A stretch of 64,000 nt of DNA, from contig NW_027266266.1 in assembly GCF_022045235.1 (NCBI RefSeq), forward strand, positions 20,274,001 to 20,338,000, in the 5' to 3' direction. The stretch's first letter is position 1; every line of letters begins with the position of its first letter. A program made the translations under genes and the position numbers. Below are positions 15,285-56,193 of the stretch, piece after piece. The notes under the pieces were generated by a model, which worked only from the letters and a program-made list of their open reading frames with translations, had not been told where the DNA came from and ran no database searches. The DNA comes from Haliotis cracherodii. Taxonomy: Eukaryota.

Positions 15285-16504
15285 ATGCAGTCAAGTAGCT
15301 GTGTTCAAGGTACCAATGTGTCACAGTTTCATGTTGATTACGTTTCATCCTGTGGTTATATAATCGGCTACCTTCAGGTTGATGCTAATGTTTCATCACT
15401 AAGGTGTATAACTAGGCCTGTAGAAATCTCAACGTACTATACGCGTTTCCTCGCATTTTATATTTCTTTTGGGTACTTAAATTTCCTCAATGGCCAATGC
15501 TCACATAAATAGTGATTTTGTCCTGACCCCGGGTGAAGCGCACTAACGAATAGAATAAAATAAATACAACTGACACGAATGTGTATAAGATGATACCTAT
15601 AAGGTATATACTTACAAGCTTACGTTTTTAATCAATGACTTTACAGTGTAAATAAGAGTGTGCATGCCTTTTTTATTTTCACTTCTCCCCCACACAGAGA
15701 GGATGTTTCACCCGGCTTTCACCCCTGCTGCCACTCCTGTCCCACGTCGAGTAGGTGTGTTAGGGTTGTAGAAACAGAATATGACTAACTTTGACAACAG
15801 ATCCTTGTCTAAATCTCAGTGTATCAAAGTGTTGATGTTCCATAACCTACTGTATTACCACTTTCCTAACTAAAGATACACCGCACCTACCTATCACTAG
15901 GATCAGTGAGTGAGTGAGTTGGGTTTAACGCCGCTTTTAACATTATTCCAGTTATATCACGGCGGGTCAGCTTAATGTGGGAGGAAAGCCCGAAGTGATG
16001 CAGGTCTCAGACGTTTACCACTTCGGTGAAACCCACGAGCACGGGTATGGTGCTGACAAACCTAGAAACATAATCGGGGCGAACCGGGATTCGAACCCAC
16101 AATCATAGGTTTCTGGCGTGCCCAAGGGACGCAACTCTGCACAGCAAATCGCGGCGCCTTAGACGACTGGGCCACCCGTGCCCCCCACTAGGATCAGTAT
16201 CACGTTTGTCTCATCATTTTTCTCTTTCCACTTCTCTCCCCACCAGCGTCCTTGTGTGTACTACCCTGAACCCCTGTCCACCCTCCCCACCTCCTACACC
16301 TCTGTCCCCGACCCAGCCCCTGTCTCTGTTTCTGTCAACATCACCGGCCACGTCATTATGGTTGACACCGACTTTGTGGAGATTGATCTCGGACGTGAGG
16401 AAGACACACAACCCCTCCCACCCCAGTCCTTCCTGAGAGCCTTGCTGTCCCGCTTCATCCGTCTGGTCAAGAGAGTCTTCACCTCCAACAAAAACGACGC
16501 TTAA
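15285..16504 (+). CDS. Novel 3-exon small protein, copy 2 (111 aa)
   Basis: Exons 15285-15309, 15698-15750, 16247-16504. Intron 2 is enlarged by an antisense SINE; splice sites are intact. Confidence 0.7.
15908..16185 (-). mobile_element. SINE A, young antisense insertion in intron 2 of gene copy 2
   Basis: Perfect 13-bp TSD CACTAGGATCAGT (15895-15907 and 16186-16198); absent from the other seven introns. Confidence 0.95.
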
Positions 16505-18492
16505 AGTGATAATTTGTAACAATCTGAGAAGTCCCCTTTCCTCTTTTTTTATGGACACTTTGGCAAATTAGTTATCATTCCCATTTGGTTGTTCTTTCAT
16601 TAGCATGATGAGTAAATTTTGTTGTTGTTTGAATTGGTGTTGGTTGCTTTATTCTATTATTAGTGTAGGAGCCTCCTTACGTATGGAACAAACTCAAACA
16701 TAACCTAAAGCTACAAGTAACATTACAGAATTCTGCATTCTGATTCTACGTTTGTAGATCTCCTTAGTTCTGTGACAACTTGGTGAATATCGTATGCAAT
16801 AGTTACAACAATAGGTTTCACAAGTTACTCGAACCAGAAATCGAACCTTGGTCAGGGTGTGACAAGCGAACACTAACTGCTGTGCCATCCTTCAGTCAAT
16901 CTGTTTTCAGATTTGCCAGTTTAAATGTTCAAATATTATAGAACACTAAATGAAAACCCCTCAAAAGATTACTAGCCGAGTGTGTGTAAGTATATATGGA
17001 CTAAAAAAGTATATAATGTGAGCTCAGCAATTTGTTTGTACAAACCTGAGGACAATTATTTCCCCCACCCCAAATTCTAACATTGTGTTTAAAATAGGGA
17101 TGGAAAGACCATGAATAGGGATGTATCAGGAAAGTTTTTGAAGAGAAGTCCTAACTCAGTAGACTATGGGCCATAAGACCTGGACATGATTTTCAGCACC
17201 TGTCTCCCTGGTCTTGAAACAAAAATGTATTTAATGTGCTCTTGATGCTGATTTTGTGGAACATCACAGGCCATGTTATTATGGTTGCTCAGTAACAGCA
17301 TGCTATGAAGTTCTCAAACGATTTCTTACCAAAACAGGCTTCCTAACATTGAATTGAATTTGGTGAAACAGGTCAATAATATACTGGTATACTACATACC
17401 TGCAGAACTAATTACAGTTTACAGGATAATTATGATAATAATTTGTGTACTGTACCATCAAAATTCAATTCGGAAATATTTAGGAAATATTTCTTCCTTG
17501 CTAATTATTTCCTAGCTTTCATAACTTACCTATGTATAAATTGATACAATCTTTGTGATGGTCATGACAATAATATGGTTGACACTAACTTGAGACTGAC
17601 TTATTTAAGATTTTGACAGTGAGGAAGAAACACAAACTAAACCAGCCATCCTTCCTGAGAACCATGATGTCCCGTGTCATCTGAGTGGTCAAAAGAGTCT
17701 TCACCTCTAGCAACAATGTTGAAAGCTTTCCTTGGAACAAGTTCCAGGATATTTTGTTGGATTCATTAACTTTTCGTCTTGTAAATTATTTCCATATGGT
17801 TTCAGGTGATATAAATAAATGTTTTTGTTGTTCAAACTGTTGTTTGCTGTTATATTTTATCAATGTAAGTGCCTCCTATAATTATCAAAAGCGTGAATAG
17901 CATTCTAAAACCATCCTAAAGAATTCTGGTTCGTGTCTGGCAGTAAGTCTAGGTTAGATCTAATAACCAAATAGGTTTACATATGAGGTATAGATTAGCT
18001 CATCTTTTTTATATTGTATGCACAATCATTGACGTTTTTTTCTGAAATAACATCAAGAATGAATTCCACCACTGTGGACAGGGACGATTTTGAAATGACT
18101 AAAGTGCTTGACAGTTAACAAACCTAGCCTGACTGTAGCTATTGAATCACAGCTCTCTATTAAAAGAATGCGACCAGACCATCATGACACTTCTAATGGA
18201 TATCTACATTAAAGAAGGTTCGTCGCCATTCCAAATGAACCCTGTAGGAAACTAGGAATTCCACAGAGTAGAAAAGGTCCTTGGTATCCATAGCTGGCCA
18301 CATTAGCCAAAAACAAGATTCTTGCTCATGCTTTCAGTCACTGGTTTGTGTGATCATGACTTGATATCATATACAAGCCGGCGTGATACAGCTTACTTCC
18401 GTGTGGTCATAGATATCAATGTATATTTTCAGTTTACGAGAGCAAATAAAATGAGACAATTGCAACACTGTTCAACCTCAATAGTTTATGCT

Positions 18493-19323
18493 ATTTGCGC
18501 TCCGTCCAAAGCTTAAAGAGAATGGTTACGGAATCGCAAATGACTTGACTATAGCTCAACGGAAGACGCTACAGGAGCTACGACGTAACAATAAGCGCGG
18601 ATATTACAAGAAAGGGGTTCTTGTGGTTGAACATATGCAGACTACAGATAGACGTCATGAGTCTCCACCAGGCCACCCAGACACAGACCAGGCGACTTCA
18701 AAGACTCCGCCCAGGGCGGGTGTGCCAGCTAGTGTCCGAAACCCACAGAATGAAGATGATTTTCGCAGATAGGGGTGTGGCCAAGGCCGTAACTGTAACT
18801 CTAATACCAGACTAACCACTTCTTTTGTATTCTGGAACATTGCTGGACTACAATCGAAGCTCCACGATACTGACTTTATCTCATTCATACACCAATTTGA
18901 TGTCATCAGTTTATGTGAAACATGGTCATCCCATAGTGATAGTCAACTATGTTTCCCCGGATATATTACTCACTCCATCCCAGCTGAACAAATATCATTT
19001 TTTGGGCGACTGTCAGGTGGTCTGGTTGTTTTGATAAAACAACACCTAGTCCAATATGTGAAAGGTTGTGTGACCGGTCCCAACGGAATTTTCATCGTAC
19101 TGGACAAGCGCTTATTTTGTTTGGGAAAGGACACCATTGTAGCTTGTGTATATGTCCATCCTGAGGGCTCAACCTGGTATAAATCGGCTACAACGAAGTG
19201 TGGTATAAGTTTATTCTTTGAATCACTACTTGACGTGTTACAAAGATTTGGAGACTGTAGTATTTTGATTGGTGGCGACCTTAACTCTAGAACTGGCACA
19301 GATCCCGACGGAATTGAACTCAT
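18493..19323 (+). mobile_element. Internal fragment of a second APE-LINE family (ORF1 end plus ORF2 endonuclease N-half), uninterrupted
   Basis: LKENGYGIANDLTIAQRKTLQEL...DFRR*GCGQG...FVFWNIAGL...FDVISLCETW...GRLSGGLVVLIK...CVYVHP...IGGDLNSRTG, all in one frame. Unique to this unit; no TSD or tail. Confidence 0.9.
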
Positions 19324-19521
19324 TTATTATGCCTGAGACATTCCAGAAGAGAAAAGTTAATGAAGCTATTATTACTGTCGCTTCTCTCCCTTGATGGGTT
19401 CTCTTGATGAGCAGTAAAATCAGCGTATAGGCCCTGTCCACACCCTTAGCTCTGTCCCCCTACTGCTGGCCTGTGTGACCTCGAGCGCGTATCCGTCTCT
19501 CATCCTTACGTTCCCATCCAT

Positions 19522-19566
<45 letters not shown>

Positions 19567-20370
19567 CCCCAAATGTGCTTTCCTGTGCAGCTTCATCTTT
19601 TCTAGTATCTCTCTCTCCTCTCCGCTCCTCTCCTCTCCTCCCAATTTCGAGGACTAATAAAGTAAAGATTTCATTCGGTAAATATAAACCTGTTTAATTC
19701 ATAGACAAAACAGGCTCTTACAGGATCACATGACCAATTTTGTCTCACAAGCCACAATCTGTCACTGTTTCATTGAAGGTGAGGGGGGCACGGGTGGCCC
19801 AGTCGTCTAAGGCGCCGCGATTCGCTGTGCAGAGTTGCGTCCCTTGGGCACGCCAGAAACCTATGATTGTGGGTTCGAATCCTGGTTCGCCCCGATTATG
19901 TTTCTAGGTTTGTCAGCACCATACCCGGGCTTTTGGGTTTCACCGAAGTGGTTAACGTCTGAGACCTGCATCACTTCGGGCTTTCCTCCCACATTAAGCT
20001 GACACGCCGTGATATAAATGGAATACTGTTAAAAGCGGCGTTAAACCCAACTCACTCACTCATTGAAGGGGATGGAAGATGGCTGGATCTTGAACAGAAG
20101 TTCAACAAAAACAACCGAGTAGTAGTTTTAAGCTCAACAAAGTCATCTTCTCCAAAATCAGACTTCGTTCCTGTTCTGGCTTTATAGTCTCCGCCACAAT
20201 TAACAATAGCATCTCTTAATTCTGATAAAATGTCCAACAAACTGTTTTGAAATATAGGGGTGCCACTTTTACAATCAACAGATAAAATGTAATAGGAGCT
20301 AGATCCCTCAGGATGGATATATACACATGCATATTATACGTCATATTGACGGCCGAGCTAGGAATTATCA

Positions 20371-20414
<44 letters not shown>

Positions 20415-21763
20415 TTCCGTTATTTTACACCGTTTTATAATATATTTCTGTAGTTGCTTCTTTACAAGTATTATTATCCAACCTGAAATTCTGCCTGTCT
20501 TAGGGGGCACGGGTGGCCCAGTCGTCAAAGGCACCGCGACTCGCTGTGCAGAGTTGCGTCCCTTGACCTGCATCACTTCGGGTTTTCCTCCCACATTAAG
20601 CTGACATGCCGCGATAAAACTTGAATACTGTTAAAAGCTTCGTCAAACCCAACTCACAATCACTCACTCACTCACTTAGAAGTTGACGGATGACAATGTA
20701 GACACAATTTATGGATAACAACTTCTTTATTTTACTGTAACATCGACGTTTCGGTATAGATCCATGGTACAAAATATATATAGAATTAGAAGGTGGAGGA
20801 TTAACAGAAACAAACAGTTGCATACATGAGAGAGATTGACATGAGTAGGTTAAATAATAACAGAAGGATAAAACAGTAACAAAATGATGGACAGAGAACA
20901 CATGACGAGGAAGCCAATGAGACAGGAAGCCAATTAAACAGGATAAGTAATCATAGGATGGGTCGTTATTGTTTAATGAGTTCACAGTAGGCGGATAGGA
21001 TGAAATGACCTTGATGGTTTGTGGCGGCGAATGTGGACTGTTTCTCTTAGTTTGCTTTTTGTGAAGTCCTGGAGGTTGTTGGAGAGGATATGGACGGTCC
21101 ATGTTGTGATAAGGGCAGTTGCTGATATGGTCCGAATGCCTGATTTACTGTCGATTTGATGGTTGAAGTTTTGTTCTCTTTGATTCTGGTGTTGATGGGG
21201 CGGGATGTTTCACCGACATAGGATTGCCCCATATCATCAGCCGCCTCCTCAAACAGTAACCCAATATTGACCCCGACTTCGCCAGATCCACCTCCCTCAG
21301 TTCTCTAAGAAGGGACAACGGCAGAAACACAACTAAACGCCAAGAACCTAAAGGTGTAGTTTATAAAATTGGCTGTAACTGGACAATTCTATATGGGGAA
21401 AACATTCCGCCCTATAACCGTTTGCATTCATCTAGCACCCCCACATTTCCAAAAAGAATACACGAAACACAGATTCAATAATTGTAGCCTTTTCCTGTTC
21501 ACAAATCCTAAAGTGGACACTCATATATTAAGTCGACTATGAATTAATTAGTCAGAATATCAAATAAACGCAACACCACATCAAATTAGTGGTATGAACT
21601 TAAACTTTGAAACTGAGAGTTATCTCCCTTCCGTTTGTGCCGCTCGTTGCCAAGCTACCGATATCAGCAAAACGACGCCATTTTATGTTGCCGCATCTGC
21701 TGTCTCTTTGTTCTCAATCTATAACCTGCCTTGGATTTTGAGCATCACTTGAGTTTTTTAAAC

Positions 21764-22719
21764 ATGCAGTCAAGTAGCTGTGTTCAAGGTACCAATGTGT
21801 CACAGTTTTATGTTGATTACGTTTCACCGTGTGGTTATATAATCGGTTACCGTCAGGTTGATGCCAAGGTCTCATCACTAAAGTCTATAACTAGGCCTAT
21901 AGAAATCTGAACGTACTTCAACGTTTCTCAAGATATGCTAAACCCGTTTCCTCGCATTTTATATTTCTTCTATGTACTTCAATTTCTTCAATGGCCAATG
22001 CTTACATAAATAGTGATTTTGTCCTGCCCCAGGTGAACAGCCCACTAACAAATAGAAGGAATTAATAAATACAACTGACACGAACGTGTATAGATATATA
22101 TAGGCCTACCGGTATATGGTATATACTTACAAGATTACGTTTTTAATAACTTTACAGTGTAAATAAGCGTGTACATGTTTTATTTATTTTCACTTCTCCC
22201 CCACACAGATAGGATGTTTCACCCGGCTTTCACCCCTGCTGCCACTCCTGTCCCACGTCGAGTAGGTGTGCTAGGGTTGTAGAATATAACTACCTTTTAC
22301 AACAGATCCTTGTCTAAATCTCAGTGTGTCTAAGTGTTGATGTTCCATAACCTACTGTATTACCACTTTTTTAACTAAAGATACACCACACCCTACCTAT
22401 CACTAGTATCAGTATCACGTTTGTCTCATCATTTCTCTCTTTCCACTTCCCTCCCCACCAGCGTCCTTGTGTGTACCACCCTGAACCCCTGTCCACCCTC
22501 CCCACCTCCTACACCTCTGTCCCCGACCCAGCCCCTGTCTCTGTTTCTGTCAACATCACCGGCCATGTCATTATGGTTGACACCGACTTTGTGGAGATCG
22601 ATCTCGGCCGTGAGGAAGACACACAACCCCTCCCACCCCAGTCCTTCCTGAGAGCCTTGCTGTCTCGCTTCATCCGTCTGGTCAAGAGAATCTTCACCTC
22701 CAACAAAAACGACGCTTAA
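21764..22719 (+). CDS. Novel 3-exon small protein, copy 3 (111 aa)
   Basis: Exons 21764-21788, 22209-22261, 22462-22719; GT-AG introns, open frame. Confidence 0.7.
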
Positions 22720-23121
22720 AGGGACATTTTTCTAACAATCTGAGAAGTCACCTTTCCTTTTTTTTGTATGGACACTTTGGCAAATTAGTTATCATTCCCA
22801 TTTGGTTGTTCTTTCATTAGCATGATTAGTAAATTTTGTTGTTGTCAAAATTGTTGTTGGTTGCTTTATTCTATTATTAGTGTAGGAGCCTCCTTACGTA
22901 TGGAACAAACTCAAACCTAACCTTAAGCTACAAATAACATTACAGAATTCTGATTCTACGTTTGTAGATCTCCTCAAGTCTGTGACAACTTGGCGAATAT
23001 TGTATGCAATAGTTAAATATTATACTACAACAATAGGTTTCACAAGTTGCTCATGTTAGAAATCGAACCTTGGTCAGGGTGTGACAAGCAAACACTAACT
23101 GCTGTGCCACCCTTCAGTCAA

Positions 23122-23166
<45 letters not shown>

Positions 23167-26062
23167 TTATATGGACTAAAAAAGTATATATTTTGAGCTC
23201 AGCAATTTATTTGTTTGAACAAACCTGAGGACAATTATTACCCCCACCCCAAATTCAAACATTGTGTTTAAAAGAGGGATGGTAAGAACATGAATAGGGA
23301 TGTATCAGGAAAGTTTTCAAAGAGAAGTCCTAACTCAGTAGACTATGGGCCATAAGACCTGGACATGATTTTCATCACCTGTCTCCCGGGTCTTGAAACA
23401 AAAATGTATTGTTTCTGCTCTTGATGCTGATTTTGTGGAACATCACAGGCCATGTTATTATGGTTGCTTGGTAACAGCATGCTATGAAGTACTCAAACGA
23501 TTTCTTACCTAAACATTGAATTGAATAAGGTGAAACAAGTCAATAATATACTGGTATACTATATATCTGCATAACTAATTACAGTTGACAGGATAATTAT
23601 GATAATAATTTGTGTACTGTACCATCCAAATACAATTCTGAAATATATAGGAAATATTTCTTCCTTGCTAATTATTTCCTAGCTTTCATAACTCATAAAT
23701 AAATTGATACAATCTTTGTGATGGTCATGACAATAATATGGTTGACACTAACTTGAGACTGACTTATTTAAGATTTTGGCAGTGAGGAAGAAACACAAAC
23801 TAAACCAGCCATCCTTCCTGAGAACCATGATGTCCCGTGTCATCTGAGTGGTCAAAAGAGTCTTCACCTCCAGCAACAATGTTGAAAGCTTTCCTTGGAA
23901 CAAGTTCCAGGATATTTTGTTGGATTCATTAACTTTTGTCTTGTTAATTATTTCCATATGGTTTCAGGTGATATAAATAAATGTTTTTGTTGTTCAAACT
24001 GTTGTTTGCTGTTATATTTTATCAATGTAAGTGCCTCCTATAATTATCAAAAGCCTGAATAGCATCCTAAAACCATGCTAAAGTATTCTGGTTCTTGTCT
24101 GGCAGTAAGTCTAGGTTAGATCTAATAACCAAATAGGTTTACACATGAGGTATAGATTAGCTCATCTTTTTTATATTGTATGCACAATCATTGACGTTTT
24201 TTTCTAAAATAACATCAAGAATGAATAGTTTATGCTTCGAAAAACTTGAAGCTTCTGCCATAGCTATCACAATTGACAATCGTCCCATTTAACATTTTAT
24301 TGAAAAAAGTCCAACTATTCTTTTGCCATACTTAGTACTGTTGATTTTTTGTTTCGTTTGTTCTTTAACGCCGCACTCACCAATATTCCAGCTATATGAC
24401 GTAAGGTATATGACGTATGTAAATAATCGTGTCTGGACAAGACAATCCAGTGTTGACATCATGAGCAACGATCAACGCTTTTGGCATAAAAAGACATGCA
24501 TCAACCATGAAAGCTTGTTTGTATGTTTGTTGTTTAACGCCGCACTCAGCAATATTCCAGCTATATGACGGCCGTCTGCAAATAATCGAGTCCACAGGAC
24601 TAGTGCCAATTTCTAACGCTGGCTATATCAGACAAGTAGGCAATATCAACTCCTACTAAAATGAACTGAAAGGCAAAAGAAAGTAGCCACCAATTTCGAG
24701 GACTAATAAAGTAAAGATTTCATTCGGTAAATATAAACCTGTTTAATTCATAGACAAAACAGGCTCTTACAGGATCACATGACCAATTTTGTGTCACAAG
24801 CCACAATCTGTGACTGTTTCATTGAAGGTGAGGGGGGCACGGGTGGCCAGTTATAGTAGATATAACTGGAATACTGTTAAAAGCGGCCCCACTCACTCAC
24901 TCTGCCTGTCTTAGACAGTCTATCAGCATCTTTAATATAAAGGGTAAAGTCTGTGAAAGTGACCTTCACATCCTCTACATTATCCAACCAAGTTTCAGTT
25001 ACACCAATTATATCAAATTTGTTCACATATTTGACAAACTTATTATCTGTTAACTCATATATTATGCCTGAGACATTCCAGAAGAGAAAGTTAATGAAGC
25101 TATTATTACTGTCGCTTCTCTCCCTTGATGGGTTCTCTTGATGAGCAGTAAAATCAGCGTATAGGCCCTGGCCACACCCTTAGCTCTGTCCCCCTACTGC
25201 TGGCCTGTGTGACCTCGAGCGCGTATCCCGTCTCTCATCCTTACGTTCCCATCCATCAAGCTCTCTCTCTCTCTCTCGCCCCCAAATGTGCTTTCCTGTG
25301 CAGCTTCATCTTTTCTAGTATCTCTCTCTCCTCTCCTCTCCTCCCAATTTCGAGGACTAATAAAGTAAAGATTTCATTCGGTAAATATAAACCTGTTTAA
25401 TTCATAGACAAAACAGGCTCTTACAGGATCACATGACCAATTTTGTGTCATAAGCCACAATCTGTCACTGTTTCATTGAAGGTGAGGGGGCACGGGTGGC
25501 CCAGTCGTCTAAGGCGCCGCGATTCGCTGAGCAGAGTTGCGTCCCTTGGGCACGCCAGAAACCTATGATTGTGGGTTCGAATCCCGGTTCGCCCTGATTA
25601 TGTTTCTAGGTTTGTCAGCACCATACCCGTGCTTTTGGGTTTCACCGAAGTGGTTAACGTCTGAGACCTGCATCACTTTGGGCTTTCCTCCCACATTAAG
25701 CTGACACGCCGTGATATAAATGGAATACTGTTAAAAGCGGCGTTAAACCCAACTCACTCACTCATTGAAGGGGATGAAAGATGGCTGGATCTTGAACAGA
25801 AGTTCAACAAAAACAACCGAGTAGTAGTTTTAAGCTCAACAATGTCATCTTCTCCAAAATCAGACTTCGTTCCTGTTCTGGCTCCGCCACAATTAACAAT
25901 AGCATCTCTTAATTCTGATAAAATGTCCAACAAACTGTTTGGAAATATAGGGGTGCCACTTTTACAATCAACAGATAAAATGTAATAGGAGCTAGATCCC
26001 TCAGGATGGATATATACACATGCATATTATACGTCAGATTGACGGCCGAGCTAGGAATTATC

Positions 26063-27446: not shown

Positions 27447-28402
27447 ATGCAGTCAAGTAGCTGTGTTCAAGGTACCAATGTGTCACAGTTTTATGTTGAT
27501 TACGTTTCACCGTGTGGTTATATAATCGGTTACCGTCAGGTTGATGCCAAGGTCTCATCACTAAAGTCTATAACTAGGCCTATAGAAATCTGAACGTACT
27601 TCAACGTTTCTCAAGATATGCTAAACCCGTTTCCTCGCATTTTATATTTCTTCTATGTACTTCAATTTCTTCAATGGCCAATGCTTACATAAATAGTGAT
27701 TTTGTCCTGCCCCAGGTGAACAGCCCACTAACAAATAGAAGGAATTAATAAATACAACTGACACGAACGTGTATAGATATATATGGGCCTACCGGTATAT
27801 GGTATATACTTACAAGATTACGTTTTTAATAACTTTACAGTGTAAATAAGCGTGTACATGTTTTATTTATTTTCACCTTTCCCCCACACAGAGAGGATGT
27901 TTCACCCGGCTTTCACCCCTGCTGCCACTCCTGTCCCACGTCGAGTAGGTGTGCTAGGGTTGTAGAATATAACCACCTTTTACAACAGATCCTTGTCTAA
28001 ATCTCAGTGTGTCTAAGTGTTGATGTTCCATAACCTACTGTATTACTACTTTTTTAACTAAAGATACACCGCACCCTACCTATCACTAGTATCAGTATCA
28101 CGTTTGTCTCATCATTTCTCTCTTTCCACTTCCCTCCCCACCAGCGTCCTTGTGTGTACCACCCTGAACCCCTGTCCACCCTCCCCACCTCCTACACCTC
28201 TGTCCCCGACCCAGCCCCTGTCTCTGTTTCTGTCAACATCACCGGCCATGTCATTATGGTTGACACCGACTTTGTGGAGATCGATCTCGGCCGTGAGGAA
28301 GACACACAACCCCTCCCACCCCAGTCCTTCCTGAGAGCCTTGCTGTCCCGCTTCATCCGTCTGATCAAGAGAGTCTTCACCTCCAACAAAAACGACGCTT
28401 AA
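27447..28402 (+). CDS. Novel 3-exon small protein, copy 4 (111 aa)
   Basis: Exons 27447-27471, 27892-27944, 28145-28402; GT-AG introns, open frame. Confidence 0.7.
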
Positions 28403-33670: not shown

Positions 33671-34618
33671 ATGCAGTCAAGTAGCTGTGTTCAAGGTACC
33701 AATGTGTCACAGTTTTATGATGATTACGTTTCACCTTGTGGTTATGTAATCGGTTACCGTCAGGTTGATGCCAAGGTCTCATCACTAAGCTCTCTAACAA
33801 GGACTATAGAACGTACTTCAACGATTCTCAAGATATACTAAACCCGTTTCCTCGCATTTTATGTTTCTTCTATGTACTTCAATTTCTTCAATGGCCAATG
33901 CTTACATAAATAGTGATTTCGTTCTGCCCCAGGTGAAAAGCCCACTAACGAATAGAACAAAATAAATAAATACAACTTACACCAACATGTATAGATTTAT
34001 ATATATAGACCTATATGGTATATACTTACAAGATTACGTTTTTAATAACTTTACAGTGTAAATAAGAGTGTACATGTCTTATTTATTTTCACTTCTCCCC
34101 CTCACAGATAGGATGTTTCACCAGACTTTCACCCCTGCTGCCACTCCTGTCCCACGTCGAGTAGGTGTGCTAGGGTTGTAGAATATAACCAACTTTTACA
34201 AAATATCCTTGTCTAAATCTCAGTGTGTCTAAGTGTTGATGTTCCGTAACCTACTGTATTACCACTTTCCTAACTAAAGATACACCGCACCCTACCTATC
34301 ACTAGTATCAGTATCACGTTTGTCTCATCATTTCTCTCTTTCCACTTCCCTCCCCACCAGCGCCCTTGTGTGTACCACCCTGAACCCCTGTCCACCCTCC
34401 CCACCTCCTACACCTCTGTCCCCGACCCAGCCCCTGTCTCTGTTTCTGTCAACATCACCGGCCACGTCATTATGGTTGACACTGACTTTGTGGAGATAGA
34501 TCTCGGCCGTGAGGAAGACACACAACCCTTCCCACCCCAGTCCTTCCTGAGAGCCTTGCTGTCCCGCTTCATCCGTCTGATCAAGAGAGTCTTCACCTCC
34601 AACAAAAACGACGCTTAA
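33671..34618 (+). CDS. Novel 3-exon small protein, copy 5 (111 aa)
   Basis: Exons 33671-33695, 34108-34160, 34361-34618; GT-AG introns, open frame. Confidence 0.7.
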
Positions 34619-52711: not shown

Positions 52712-53900
52712 GGTAAACGTCTGAGACCTGCATCACTTCGGGCTTTCCTCCCAAATTAAGCTGACACGCCATGATATAACTGGAATACTGTTAAAAGCGG
52801 CGTTAAACCCCACTCACTCACTCTGCCTGTCTTAGACAGTCTATCAGCATCTTTAATATAAAGGGTAAAGTCTGTGAAAGTGACCTTCATATCCTCTACA
52901 TTATCCAACCATATTATGCCTGAGACATTCCAGAAGAGAAAGTTAATGAAGCTATTATTACTGTCGCTTCTCTCCCTTGATGGGTTCTCTTGATGAGCAG
53001 TAAAATCAGCGTATAGGCCCTGGCCACACCCTTAGCTCTGTCCCCCTACTGCTGGCCTGTGTGACCTCGAGCGCGTATCCCGTCTCTCATCCTGTTGTCT
53101 TTCCTCTCTCTCATCCTCTGTGCCTCAAGATATGCTTTCCTGTTCAGCTTGGGGGCACGGGTGGCCCAGTCGTCTAAGGCGCCGCGATTCGTTGTGCAGA
53201 GTTGCGTCCCTTGGACACACCAGAAACCTATGATTGTGGGTTTGAATCCCGGTTCACCCCGATTATGTTTCTAGGTTTGTCAGCACCATACCCTGTGCTC
53301 GTGTGTTTCACCGAAGTGGTAAACGTCTTAGACCTGCATCACTTCGGGCTTTCCTCCCACATTAAGCTGACACGCCGTGATATAACTGGAATACTGTTAA
53401 AAGCGGCGTTAAACCCAACTAACTTACTCACTCACTCCTGTGCAGCTTCATCTTTTCTAGTATCTCTCCTCTCTTCGGCTTCCCTCACTAATTTCCCTTC
53501 TCTGTAGTAGAACCGTGTGTCTGGTTCGTCTGTTCCGCATTTTAATAATTCCTGTCTCTGATTTAAAGTCAAGTCATTAGAGATGCCATATCCTTTACCT
53601 TTAAGGACGACACAGCTTGCATTTTGTCGTCCCAGTGCAGCATCTTCACGAGAAGGTTTATTAGGCTTCTTCGTCGGCATACGATGTGCACGTTTCTACA
53701 TCTCTGGAATTGAGCGGGGGAATTTCTTCTCTATCTTCAGTACTTTCAGAACTTTCTCCTTACACACCGTATATGATTCATGTTGTAATTCAGGCACTCT
53801 ATATAATATTACATTATTTTTCCTGTTTCTGCGGTCTTGGATTCATAGTGGATGTATTATAAATTCACAAGGTTTTGAGGGAATTGATCGATAAGCATAA
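52230..53900 (-). mobile_element. LINE family 1 remnant including ORF1 C-terminus
   Basis: ORF 53432-53680 (LKGKGYGISNDLTLNQRQELL...YREGKLV) is homologous to ORF1 of the family 2 fragment; APE fragment at 52354-52542. Confidence 0.8.
53151..53435 (+). mobile_element. SINE A in LINE ORF1
   Basis: TSD tcctgt(t/g)cagctt on both sides. Confidence 0.9.
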
Positions 53901-55255: not shown

Positions 55256-56193
55256 ATGCAGTCAAGTAGCTGTGTTCAAGGTACCAATGTGTCACAGTTT
55301 TATGTTGATTACGTTTCACCCTGTGGTTATATAATCGGCTACCGTCAGGTTGATGCTAATGTTTCATCACTAAGGTCTATAACTAGGCCTGTATAAATCT
55401 CAACCTACTATACTCGTTTCCTTGCATTATATATTTTTATTTGGTACTTAAATTTCCTCAATGGCCAATGCTCACATAAATAGTGATTTTGTCCTGACCC
55501 CGGGTGAAGCGCACTAACAAATAGAATAAAATAAATACAACTGACACGAACGTGTATAAGATGATACCTATAGACCTATATGCTATATACTTACAAGCTT
55601 ACGTTTTTAATCAATGACTTTACAGTGTAAATAAGAGTGTGCATGTCTTATTTATTTTCACTTCTCCCCCACACAGAGAGGATGTTTCACCCGGCTTTCA
55701 CCCCTGCTGCCACTCCTGTCCCACGTCGAGTAGGTGTGCTAGGGTTGTAGAAACAGAATATGACTAACTTTTACAACAGATCCTTGTCTAAATCTCAGTG
55801 TGTCAAAGTGTTGATGTTCCATAACTTACTGTATGACCACGTTCCTAACTAAAGATACACCACACCCTACCTATCACTAGTGTCAGTATCACGTTTGTCT
55901 CATCATTTCTCTCTTTCCACTTCCCTCCCCACCAGCGTCCTTGTGTGTACCACCCTGAACCCCTGTCCACCCTCCCCACCTCCTACACCTCTGTCCCCGA
56001 CCCAGCCCCTGTCTCTGTTTCTGTCAACATCACCGGCCACGTCATTATGGTTGACACCGACTTTGTGGAGATCGATCTCGGCCGTGAGGAAGACACACAA
56101 CCCCTCCCTCCCCAGTCCTTCCTGAGAGCCTTGCTGTCCCGCTTCATCCGTCTGGTCAAGAGAATCTTCACGTCCAACAAAAACGACGCTTAA
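55256..56193 (+). CDS. Novel 3-exon small protein, copy 8 (111 aa)
   Basis: Exons 55256-55280, 55677-55729, 55936-56193; GT-AG introns, open frame. Confidence 0.7.

What the first reader, a model, noticed from the sequence alone, without database searches (positions are those of the whole stretch)
22550..22719. The novel protein pairs an invariant acidic LIR-like motif with a C-terminal cationic amphipathic helix
Seen: the core VSVNITGHVIMVDTDFVEIDLGREED has 5 synonymous variants (CAC/CAT, ACC/ACT, ATC/ATT, ATC/ATA, GGC/GGA) and no replacement among 8 copies. SFLRALLSRFIRLVKRVF has F/L/I/V on a 3-4 residue periodicity with R/K on the other face. The N-half is P/T/S-rich, with no signal peptide or TM segment. 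Established: ATG8-binding LIR motifs are [W/F/Y]xx[L/I/V] preceded by acidic residues, and DTD-FVEI fits. Inference: a disordered, membrane-binding adaptor such as a selective-autophagy receptor. The helix could instead be calmodulin-binding or lytic.
Basis: partly seen in the sequence, partly recalled or inferred. Interest (0 to 1): 0.7.

Follow-up and report, generated by a model that had tools for sequence, protein, structure and literature searches.

The report
Abalone autophagy-motif miniprotein gene family
This is one copy of an abalone gene family with more than 150 copies and no known relatives, encoding tiny proteins predicted to be mostly unfolded, which likely cling to membranes by a tail helix and likely grab the autophagy protein ATG8 through a short conserved motif.

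Summary
22462-22719 is the last exon of a real three-exon, 111-residue gene in a ~6 kb tandem unit: 8 copies in the window, 41 near-identical copies on this contig, and at least 154 loci in eight subfamilies genome-wide. All named relatives are Haliotis; no Pfam, PDB or Atlas match. Purifying selection is clear (32 synonymous, 23 replacement variants in 38 of 41 copies; none replace DTDFVEIDL). The model is unfolded except the C-terminal amphipathic helix.

What is conserved is [F/Y/V]-x-[E/D]-[I/V]-x-L followed by acids, not an acidic lead-in. The LIR core is kept in 24 of 29 representatives; one old 34-copy subfamily has V or I instead of the aromatic. The tail resembles proven LIRs (TEX264, FUNDC1, SCOC, ATG13), and the core equals optineurin's. 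The helix is kept in all subfamilies, in two with cysteines instead of strong charge, which suggests membrane anchoring.

Best reading (about 0.45): a minimal membrane-to-ATG8/FIP200 tether. Binding, cargo and tissue are untested; a LIR core occurs in 86% of shuffles. Undescribed, heavily amplified family; mechanism inferred.

The parts
21610..21685 (+). Conserved upstream element: CGCCAT at 21676 (YY1-like; name recalled), an X-box-like stretch at 21646-21658 and a degenerate TCTCGCGAGA-like stretch further up; likely the core promoter or 5' end
   Evidence: CGCCAT invariant in 10 of 10 aligned upstream regions from subfamilies A, B, C, E, G, H; also found in one F locus
21764..21788 (+). Coding exon 1 (8 codons plus 1 base)
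   Evidence: GT donor follows; matches residues 1-8 of P0024 at 100%; one contig of run X3 joins it to exon 2
21789..22208 (+). Intron 1, 420 nt, GT..AG
   Evidence: Joint skipping 420 nt, GT..AG, in 1 contig of 1 of 4 runs laid
22209..22261 (+). Coding exon 2
   Evidence: AG acceptor and GT donor; matches residues 9-26 of P0024
22262..22461 (+). Intron 2, phase 0
   Evidence: GTAGGT donor, pyrimidine-rich acceptor; same phase-0 acceptor in all subfamilies; junction not listed in the runs laid
22462..22719 (+). Coding exon 3 (85 residues plus stop): Pro/Thr/Ser-rich stretch, motif, linker, helix
22579..22620 (+). Conserved linear motif DTD-FVEI-DL plus acidic tail (LIR/FIR-shaped; F at 22588)
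   Evidence: 6 synonymous, 0 replacement variants in DTDFVEIDL over 38 copies; F, E, L invariant in 18 proteins
22642..22695 (+). Cationic amphipathic helix
   Evidence: moment 0.68, charge +5; helix 86-108 in the AF2 model, pLDDT 87 for residues 91-100
23720..23880 (+). Degenerate second copy of exon 3 with stops and frameshifts; cryptic AG acceptor before 23783
   Evidence: a loose end at the exon 2 donor in run X3 matches it at 22 of 30 letters
4343..4606 (+). Exon 3 of another copy; one extra base near the end changes the last residues, motif and helix intact
16247..16504 (+). Exon 3 of another copy; a ~280 nt inverted repeat element sits in its intron 2
28145..28402 (+). Exon 3 of another copy
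34361..34618 (+). Exon 3 of another copy
42451..42708 (+). Exon 3 of another copy
48637..48894 (+). Exon 3 of another copy
55936..56193 (+). Exon 3 of another copy
19317..25051 (+). One tandem unit (about 5.7 kb) holding the gene, the degenerate exon and repeat insertions; bounds approximate
   Evidence: self-alignment

Best explanation
It is the last exon of a spliced, selected gene in an abalone family of over 150 copies, whose 111-residue product is predicted to be unfolded apart from a tail helix and likely works as a minimal tether: the helix would lie on a membrane surface, and the FVEIDL-acidic motif would dock as a beta-strand on ATG8/GABARAP, possibly also on the FIP200 claw. Shown: gene structure, copy number, purifying selection, conservation of motif and helix across subfamilies and species. 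Predicted: disorder and the helix. Inferred: membrane binding, ATG8 binding, any role in autophagy. Subfamilies would differ in which membrane they read (charged versus cysteine-bearing helices) and in partner preference (F, Y or V at position 0).
For: Selection: pN/pS 0.25 in 38 of 41 copies, with no replacement in DTDFVEIDL; last-exon pN/pS 0.28 within subfamily C and 0.20 within H. LIR core in 24 of 29 representatives, acid at +2 in 28, at +7 in 25. A +7 acid is a described affinity determinant and optineurin has the same FVEI core (PMC7615515 section 12). Proven LIRs carry a similar tail, a hydrophobic residue at +5 mostly after D: TP53INP1, TP53INP2, ATG13, FUNDC1 (PMC5538626 Table 1), TEX264, SCOC (PMC7615515 table). 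The window subfamily also fits the FIR rule, acid at -1 (PMC7946963). The motif lies outside any predicted fold. An amphipathic helix ends 14 of 15 representatives at shuffle p<0.02; subfamilies G and H keep it with cysteines and low charge. The genome encodes GABARAP- and LC3-type proteins.
Against: Subfamily G (34 loci; three species) has V or I at position 0 and no acid before it, yet keeps E-I/M-D-L-x-E-E. Canonical LIRs need the aromatic, so either G changed partner or the family partner is not ATG8. Acid at -1 to -3 is present in only 15 of 29; the FIR rule in 12 of 29; the recalled xLIR pattern is not met at this motif in any of 15. LIR cores are common by chance (86% of shuffles). In the window subfamily the unchanged stretch is longer than a LIR (22 residues, 10 synonymous, 0 replacement), and +7 is not acidic there. 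Last-exon pN/pS is only 0.72 within F and 0.68 within G. The exon 2 to exon 3 junction was not among the joints listed for 4 runs.
Confidence: 0.45

Rival explanations
1. The motif is a SUMO-interacting motif, or a similar beta-strand ligand of another ubiquitin-like protein, and the protein is a SUMO-pathway adaptor.
For: Hydrophobic-hydrophobic-x-hydrophobic followed by acids in 25 of 29 if F, Y and M are allowed; subfamily G fits best; acids lie after the core, as in parallel SIMs (SIM definition from passages of PMC12751080). The window subfamily has a second such core, VIMV, just upstream.
Against: A strict V/I/L core is present in only 2 of 29, and the aromatic is kept in 7 of 8 subfamilies. 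The SUMO site that matches ATG8's aromatic pocket is shallower. VIMV is not kept in other subfamilies. A lipid-type helix is not explained.
Confidence: 0.15
2. The helix binds a protein rather than lipid (calmodulin, an MIT domain as a MIM1-like helix, or a PKA regulatory subunit), making a two-handed protein linker with the acidic motif.
For: S and R inside the helix are invariant in 18 proteins of subfamilies A to E, more than lipid binding usually demands. The spacing fits recalled patterns (calmodulin 1-5-10; MIM1-like LxxR-hydrophobic-xxL). An amphipathic helix of FAM134B binds PRKAR1A (search listing only, 10.1101/2025.11.01.685922).
Against: G and H replace that R and lose most of the charge while keeping the hydrophobic face and gaining cysteines. 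The patterns are recalled and were not tested.
Confidence: 0.15
3. The motif is a vesicle-coat ligand (clathrin-box-like or COPII-type) and the protein is a membrane-attached trafficking adaptor unrelated to autophagy.
For: A clathrin-box-like pattern (recalled) is met in 16 of 29, including the window subfamily and G; an acidic motif with a membrane helix is typical of coat accessories (established knowledge).
Against: The pattern fails in B, D, E and H; D at +4 is in only 20 of 29, while L at +5, which that pattern does not use, is invariant.
Confidence: 0.1
4. The helix is a lytic or antimicrobial peptide released from an acidic pro-region.
For: Charge +5 to +6 with high moment in A, C, E and F; large tandem families are typical of defence peptides (established knowledge).
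Against: No hydrophobic N-terminal or TM stretch in the window protein. The acidic motif is more conserved than the helix. No conserved cleavage site is evident, and charge is +1 in G.
Confidence: 0.06
5. The ORF is a passenger of a tandem repeat and the conservation reflects recent copying.
For: Window copies are 97-100% identical; degenerate exon copies and broken loci exist; spliced evidence is one contig.
Against: pN/pS 0.25, p=5e-7; open frames, intron phases and the upstream element are kept across subfamilies at 28-65% protein identity and across four species.
Confidence: 0.02

Closest known systems
Optineurin LIR/FIR
   Same: Identical FVEI core with an acid or phospho residue at -1; binds ATG8s and the FIP200 claw (PMC7615515, PMC7946963)
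   Different: Optineurin is a large coiled-coil ubiquitin-binding receptor (established knowledge). Here there is no such domain, no homology was found, and binding is untested.
TEX264, FUNDC1, SCOC, ATG13, TP53INP1/2 LIRs
   Same: Core followed by a hydrophobic residue at +5, mostly after D, and in TEX264 and SCOC by acids (tables in PMC5538626 and PMC7615515)
   Different: No sequence homology (Pfam blank for 10 family proteins at curated cut-offs; PDB blank). Those are low-copy genes; TEX264 and FUNDC1 use TM anchors (recalled).
Spartin-type receptors anchored by amphipathic helices
   Same: A helix reads an organelle surface while another part recruits ATG8 (PMC10415183, search listing only; the helix detail is recalled)
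   Different: Spartin is large and multidomain; this is about 100 residues, lineage-restricted and amplified to more than 150 loci.
Extended LIRs of ankyrins, FYCO1 and FAM134B
   Same: LIR followed by acids and an amphipathic helix (PMC7615515 section 12)
   Different: There the helix starts at +7 and packs on ATG8. Here it starts about 18 residues after F, past a Pro-rich linker of variable length, so it is a separate module.
Parallel SUMO-interacting motifs
   Same: Four-residue hydrophobic core followed by acids (PMC12751080)
   Different: Aromatic first residue in 24 of 29; strict V/I/L core in 2 of 29.

Membership tests
Canonical LIR/AIM | Core W/F/Y-x-x-L/I/V | tested here: met
   FVEI in the window; 24 of 29 representatives, 0 of 5 in subfamily G
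Canonical LIR/AIM | Acidic residues just before the core | tested here: met
   D at -1 and -3 in the window; family-wide only 15 of 29 within -3, 21 of 29 within -4
Canonical LIR/AIM | Exposed, disordered context | tested here: met
   No secondary structure outside residues 86-108, pTM 0.21; alignment only 18 deep
Canonical LIR/AIM | Extended xLIR pattern (recalled) | tested here: not met
   Not matched at this motif in any of 15 representatives
Canonical LIR/AIM | Binds the LIR docking site of an ATG8 protein | not testable with these tools
   Needs a binding assay
GABARAP-interacting motif (GIM) | W/F-V/I-x-V | tested here: not met
   The window has I at +3; met in 8 of 29, mostly subfamily C
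FIP200-interacting region (FIR) | Acid or phospho-S/T at -1, then hydrophobic-x-x-hydrophobic | tested here: met
   Met in the window subfamily; 12 of 29 overall
FIP200-interacting region (FIR) | Binds the FIP200 claw | not tested
   No claw sequence was fetched
Selective-autophagy receptor | Binds a cargo and is turned over with it in lysosomes | not testable with these tools
   The helix is only a candidate cargo or membrane binder
SUMO-interacting motif | V/I/L-rich four-residue core with flanking acids | tested here: inconclusive
   Loose core 25 of 29, strict core 2 of 29
Lipid-binding amphipathic helix | High hydrophobic moment with cationic polar face, no TM segment | tested here: met
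   Moment 0.68, charge +5, discriminant 2.29 against a recalled threshold of 1.34; G scores only 0.74-1.11
Any curated protein family (including TP53INP/DOR) | Profile match above the curated cut-off | tested here: not met
   0 of 10 family proteins reach a Pfam cut-off; no PDB chain under E=1

The most novel reading that the evidence does not exclude
Abalones have built a repertoire of more than 150 genes for minimal autophagy tethers, each one ATG8/FIP200 motif plus one membrane-sensing helix. The repertoire has diversified into subfamilies that read different membranes and is still amplifying in tandem arrays, as immune or germline gene families do, rather than staying single-copy like most known receptors.
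Probability: 0.3. Interest if true: 0.78.

Novelty: new variant of a known kind. Interest (0 to 1): 0.5.

Why it matters
Known ATG8-binding receptors are mostly conserved, low-copy, multidomain proteins (established knowledge). A lineage-restricted family of about 100-residue motif-plus-helix proteins at more than 150 loci would be the smallest such design. It would point to strong selection on dosage or diversity of membrane-targeted autophagy in a farmed and threatened mollusc group. The eight subfamilies form a natural mutational series (F, Y or V at position 0; acids before or after the core; charged or cysteine-bearing helix), so the partner can be found with a handful of peptides. If the motif binds something else, the invariant +5 leucine defines a linear motif worth naming. 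Without binding data it remains an uncharacterised orphan family.

Tried and rejected
Complex prediction of a GABARAP (L123, which matches the genome's own GABARAP exons at all but one residue by eye) with residues 24-85 of exon 3: no verdict, score 0.02 in two runs against a mark of 0.34, controls not folded, alignments not used, and the method is untested on disordered peptides. It is used neither for nor against. A SUMO comparison was not possible: the family search returned polyubiquitin-like repeats and partial exons only.

Sequencing runs: no RNA holder listed on record. The first laying was swamped by a high-copy repeat. Contigs of X1, X10 and X11 cross introns and may be DNA or unspliced RNA; contig depths were not used to rank exons.

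Homology outside Haliotis: none in phmmer over 1.84 billion representatives (5 hits: 3 Haliotis, 1 unnamed ENA protein P0047, 1 tandem-repeat protein P0048 judged spurious), and none in two profile searches limited to 44-165 and 34-226 residues. Longer fused forms were not searched there. Atlas blank twice; no Rfam hit in 19000-26000.

A caspase site (VEID, recalled) was rejected because D at +4 is absent in 9 of 29 and the next residue is always L. Transposon carriage of the dispersed F copies: they keep introns and homology fades without a shared end in 14 loci of 3-4 kb; not supported, not excluded. The 148-residue annotations of subfamily G with a hydrophobic N-terminus are probably over-extended (see Noticed in passing).

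Literature: six LOC identifiers gave 0 papers. Listings for Haliotis gene expansions (20 of 251) and abalone autophagy (15 of 1,900) showed nothing on this family by title or abstract start. A promoter-motif search gave 0. Supplements were not searched and could list these genes. Earlier findings of this scan: none.

Full report
Observation. The window is a tandem array of about 6 kb units. The finding lies in an exon, 22462-22719, that encodes 85 residues and occurs 8 times. With only 8 copies the core is not significantly more conserved than the rest (p=0.09). With 38 of the 41 near-identical copies in G000, the exon shows 32 synonymous and 23 replacement variants (pN/pS 0.25, p=5e-7). DTDFVEIDL has 6 and 0, the helix 10 and 7, the linker 2 and 5. 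Each distinct variant was counted once, since the copies are not independent.

The gene. Annotated 111-residue 'uncharacterized' proteins of Haliotis map onto three exons, 21764-21788, 22209-22261 and 22462-22719, with proper splice signals. Those from H. cracherodii may come from the same or a very close genome and are not counted as independent. One contig in run X3 skips intron 1 exactly (GT..AG, 420 nt); the other three runs laid show no such joint, and the exon 2 to exon 3 joint was not listed in any. Transcript evidence is therefore thin, and the case for translation rests on selection.

The family. Genome searches with four different members give at least 154 loci on 13 contigs, counted by hand from the hit lists as lower bounds: A (window type) 41, B 4, C 15, D 2, E 7, F 42, G 34, H 9. 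All have a phase-0 last exon. Three coding exons were mapped in A, C, E, G and H; in D and F exons 2 and 3 (exon 1 in one F locus), in B exons 1 and 3. An upstream CGCCAT element is invariant in 10 of 10 aligned regions, which supports common descent even for G and H, whose protein similarity to A is weak (28-38%). In a tree of 29 proteins, C, E, F and G each contain H. asinina members, and D and H contain H. rubra members, so the radiation predates those species splits; G and H are sisters (95/89). Nothing outside Haliotis was found except one unnamed ENA protein; Pfam, PDB and Atlas are blank.

What is conserved. Across 29 representatives: an aromatic-x-x-L/I/V core in 24 (0 of 5 in G, which has V or I); acid at +2 in 28; acid at +7 in 25 and at +8 in 27; acid at -1 to -3 in 15. 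L at +5 was required by my search pattern, but it is also the only invariant column of the 25-row alignment. So the family motif is [F/Y/V]-x-[E/D]-[I/V]-x-L-x-acid-acid. A Pro-rich P-L-S-x-L-P stretch upstream is also nearly constant. AF2 on an 18-row alignment gives one helix (86-108) and no fold around the motif. The helix has moment 0.68 and charge +5; 14 of 15 representatives have a significantly amphipathic tail (best window against its own shuffles, so p-values are optimistic). G and H keep the hydrophobic face with charge +1 to +3 and add cysteines.

How it most likely works. Shown: a translated, selected, amplified gene with two conserved modules. Predicted: disorder plus one helix. 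Inferred: the helix lies in a membrane surface (charged in A to F, possibly acylated in G and H), and the motif binds a groove by beta-strand addition. ATG8 is the best candidate partner. The core equals optineurin's LIR/FIR, and a +7 acid raises LIR affinity (PMC7615515, section 12 read). Proven LIRs share a similar tail with a hydrophobic residue at +5 (Table 1 of PMC5538626, passage; table of PMC7615515, passage). The window subfamily also meets the FIR rule (PMC7946963, passages). Aliphatic residues at position 0 can still bind GABARAP-type proteins, as in ATG16L1 (PMC12513996, passages), which leaves room for G. The genome has the ATG8 genes. Against this: G lacks both the aromatic and the preceding acid; LIR cores arise in 86% of shuffles; the recalled xLIR pattern is not met; and the window subfamily conserves 22 residues, more than a LIR needs, so the upstream SVSVNITG stretch may have its own role. 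I put this reading at 0.45. SIM (0.15; definition from passages of PMC12751080), a protein-binding helix (0.15), a coat motif (0.10) and a lytic peptide (0.06) are the rivals; the remainder is an unknown partner.

Comparison and novelty. It would work like LIR-bearing adaptors anchored to a membrane, but it is homologous to none, and membership among autophagy receptors cannot be tested here. I found no paper on the family (listings only, supplements not searched). What is new is the minimal design and the copy number. Names of promoter elements, the xLIR, clathrin-box, MIM1 and calmodulin patterns and the helix threshold are recalled, not from a call.

Verdict. Real, undescribed, heavily amplified abalone miniprotein family with a conserved LIR-shaped motif and tail helix. 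Interest 0.5.

Noticed in passing
window 23720-23880 and the same place in all 8 units: A degenerate copy of exon 3 lies about 1.25 kb downstream. A loose end at the exon 2 donor in run X3 (two contigs, agreement 0.67) matches it from 23783, right after an AG, at 22 of 30 letters. Splicing there would meet a stop at once and drop both motif and helix. One F locus (L092) has similar downstream degenerate copies.
   Followed up: partly
window 21610-21685; L061, L063, L066, L069, L074, L091, L103, L108, L110, L114: A shared promoter-like grammar 70-140 nt before the ATG: TCTCGCGAGA-like, X-box-like, then invariant CGCCAT (BANP/ZBTB33-, RFX- and YY1-like; names recalled). It is better conserved than much of the protein and could hint at germline or ciliated-cell expression.
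   Followed up: partly
P0058, P0059, P0060, P0065; L103, L104: The 146-148-residue annotations of subfamily G read through the CGCCAT element to give a hydrophobic N-terminus. Locus L104 has a stop in that extension and other species' models start at the later Met, so they are probably over-extended.
   Followed up: partly
window 19784-20062; inverted copy 15903-16186: A very high-copy element of about 280 nt, SINE-like, in most units; one inverted copy sits in intron 2 of the gene copy at 16247. No Rfam match in 19000-26000.
   Followed up: no
window 23439-23465: A displaced 27 nt piece encoding the NITGHVIMV stretch lies between exon 3 and the degenerate exon.
   Followed up: no
exon 2 of subfamilies C, D, E, F (P0036, P0042, P0044, P0051): A second conserved stretch around F-P-L (RFPLNFDIWAPP in E and F) is kept across species and could be another docking motif.
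   Followed up: no
window 18488-18772 (+) and 53432-53680 (-): Short ORFs similar to each other that look like retroelement fragments; no Pfam match.
   Followed up: partly
L108-L113 (subfamily H): These proteins end in a terminal cysteine with a second cysteine at the helix start, candidates for lipid modification.
   Followed up: no
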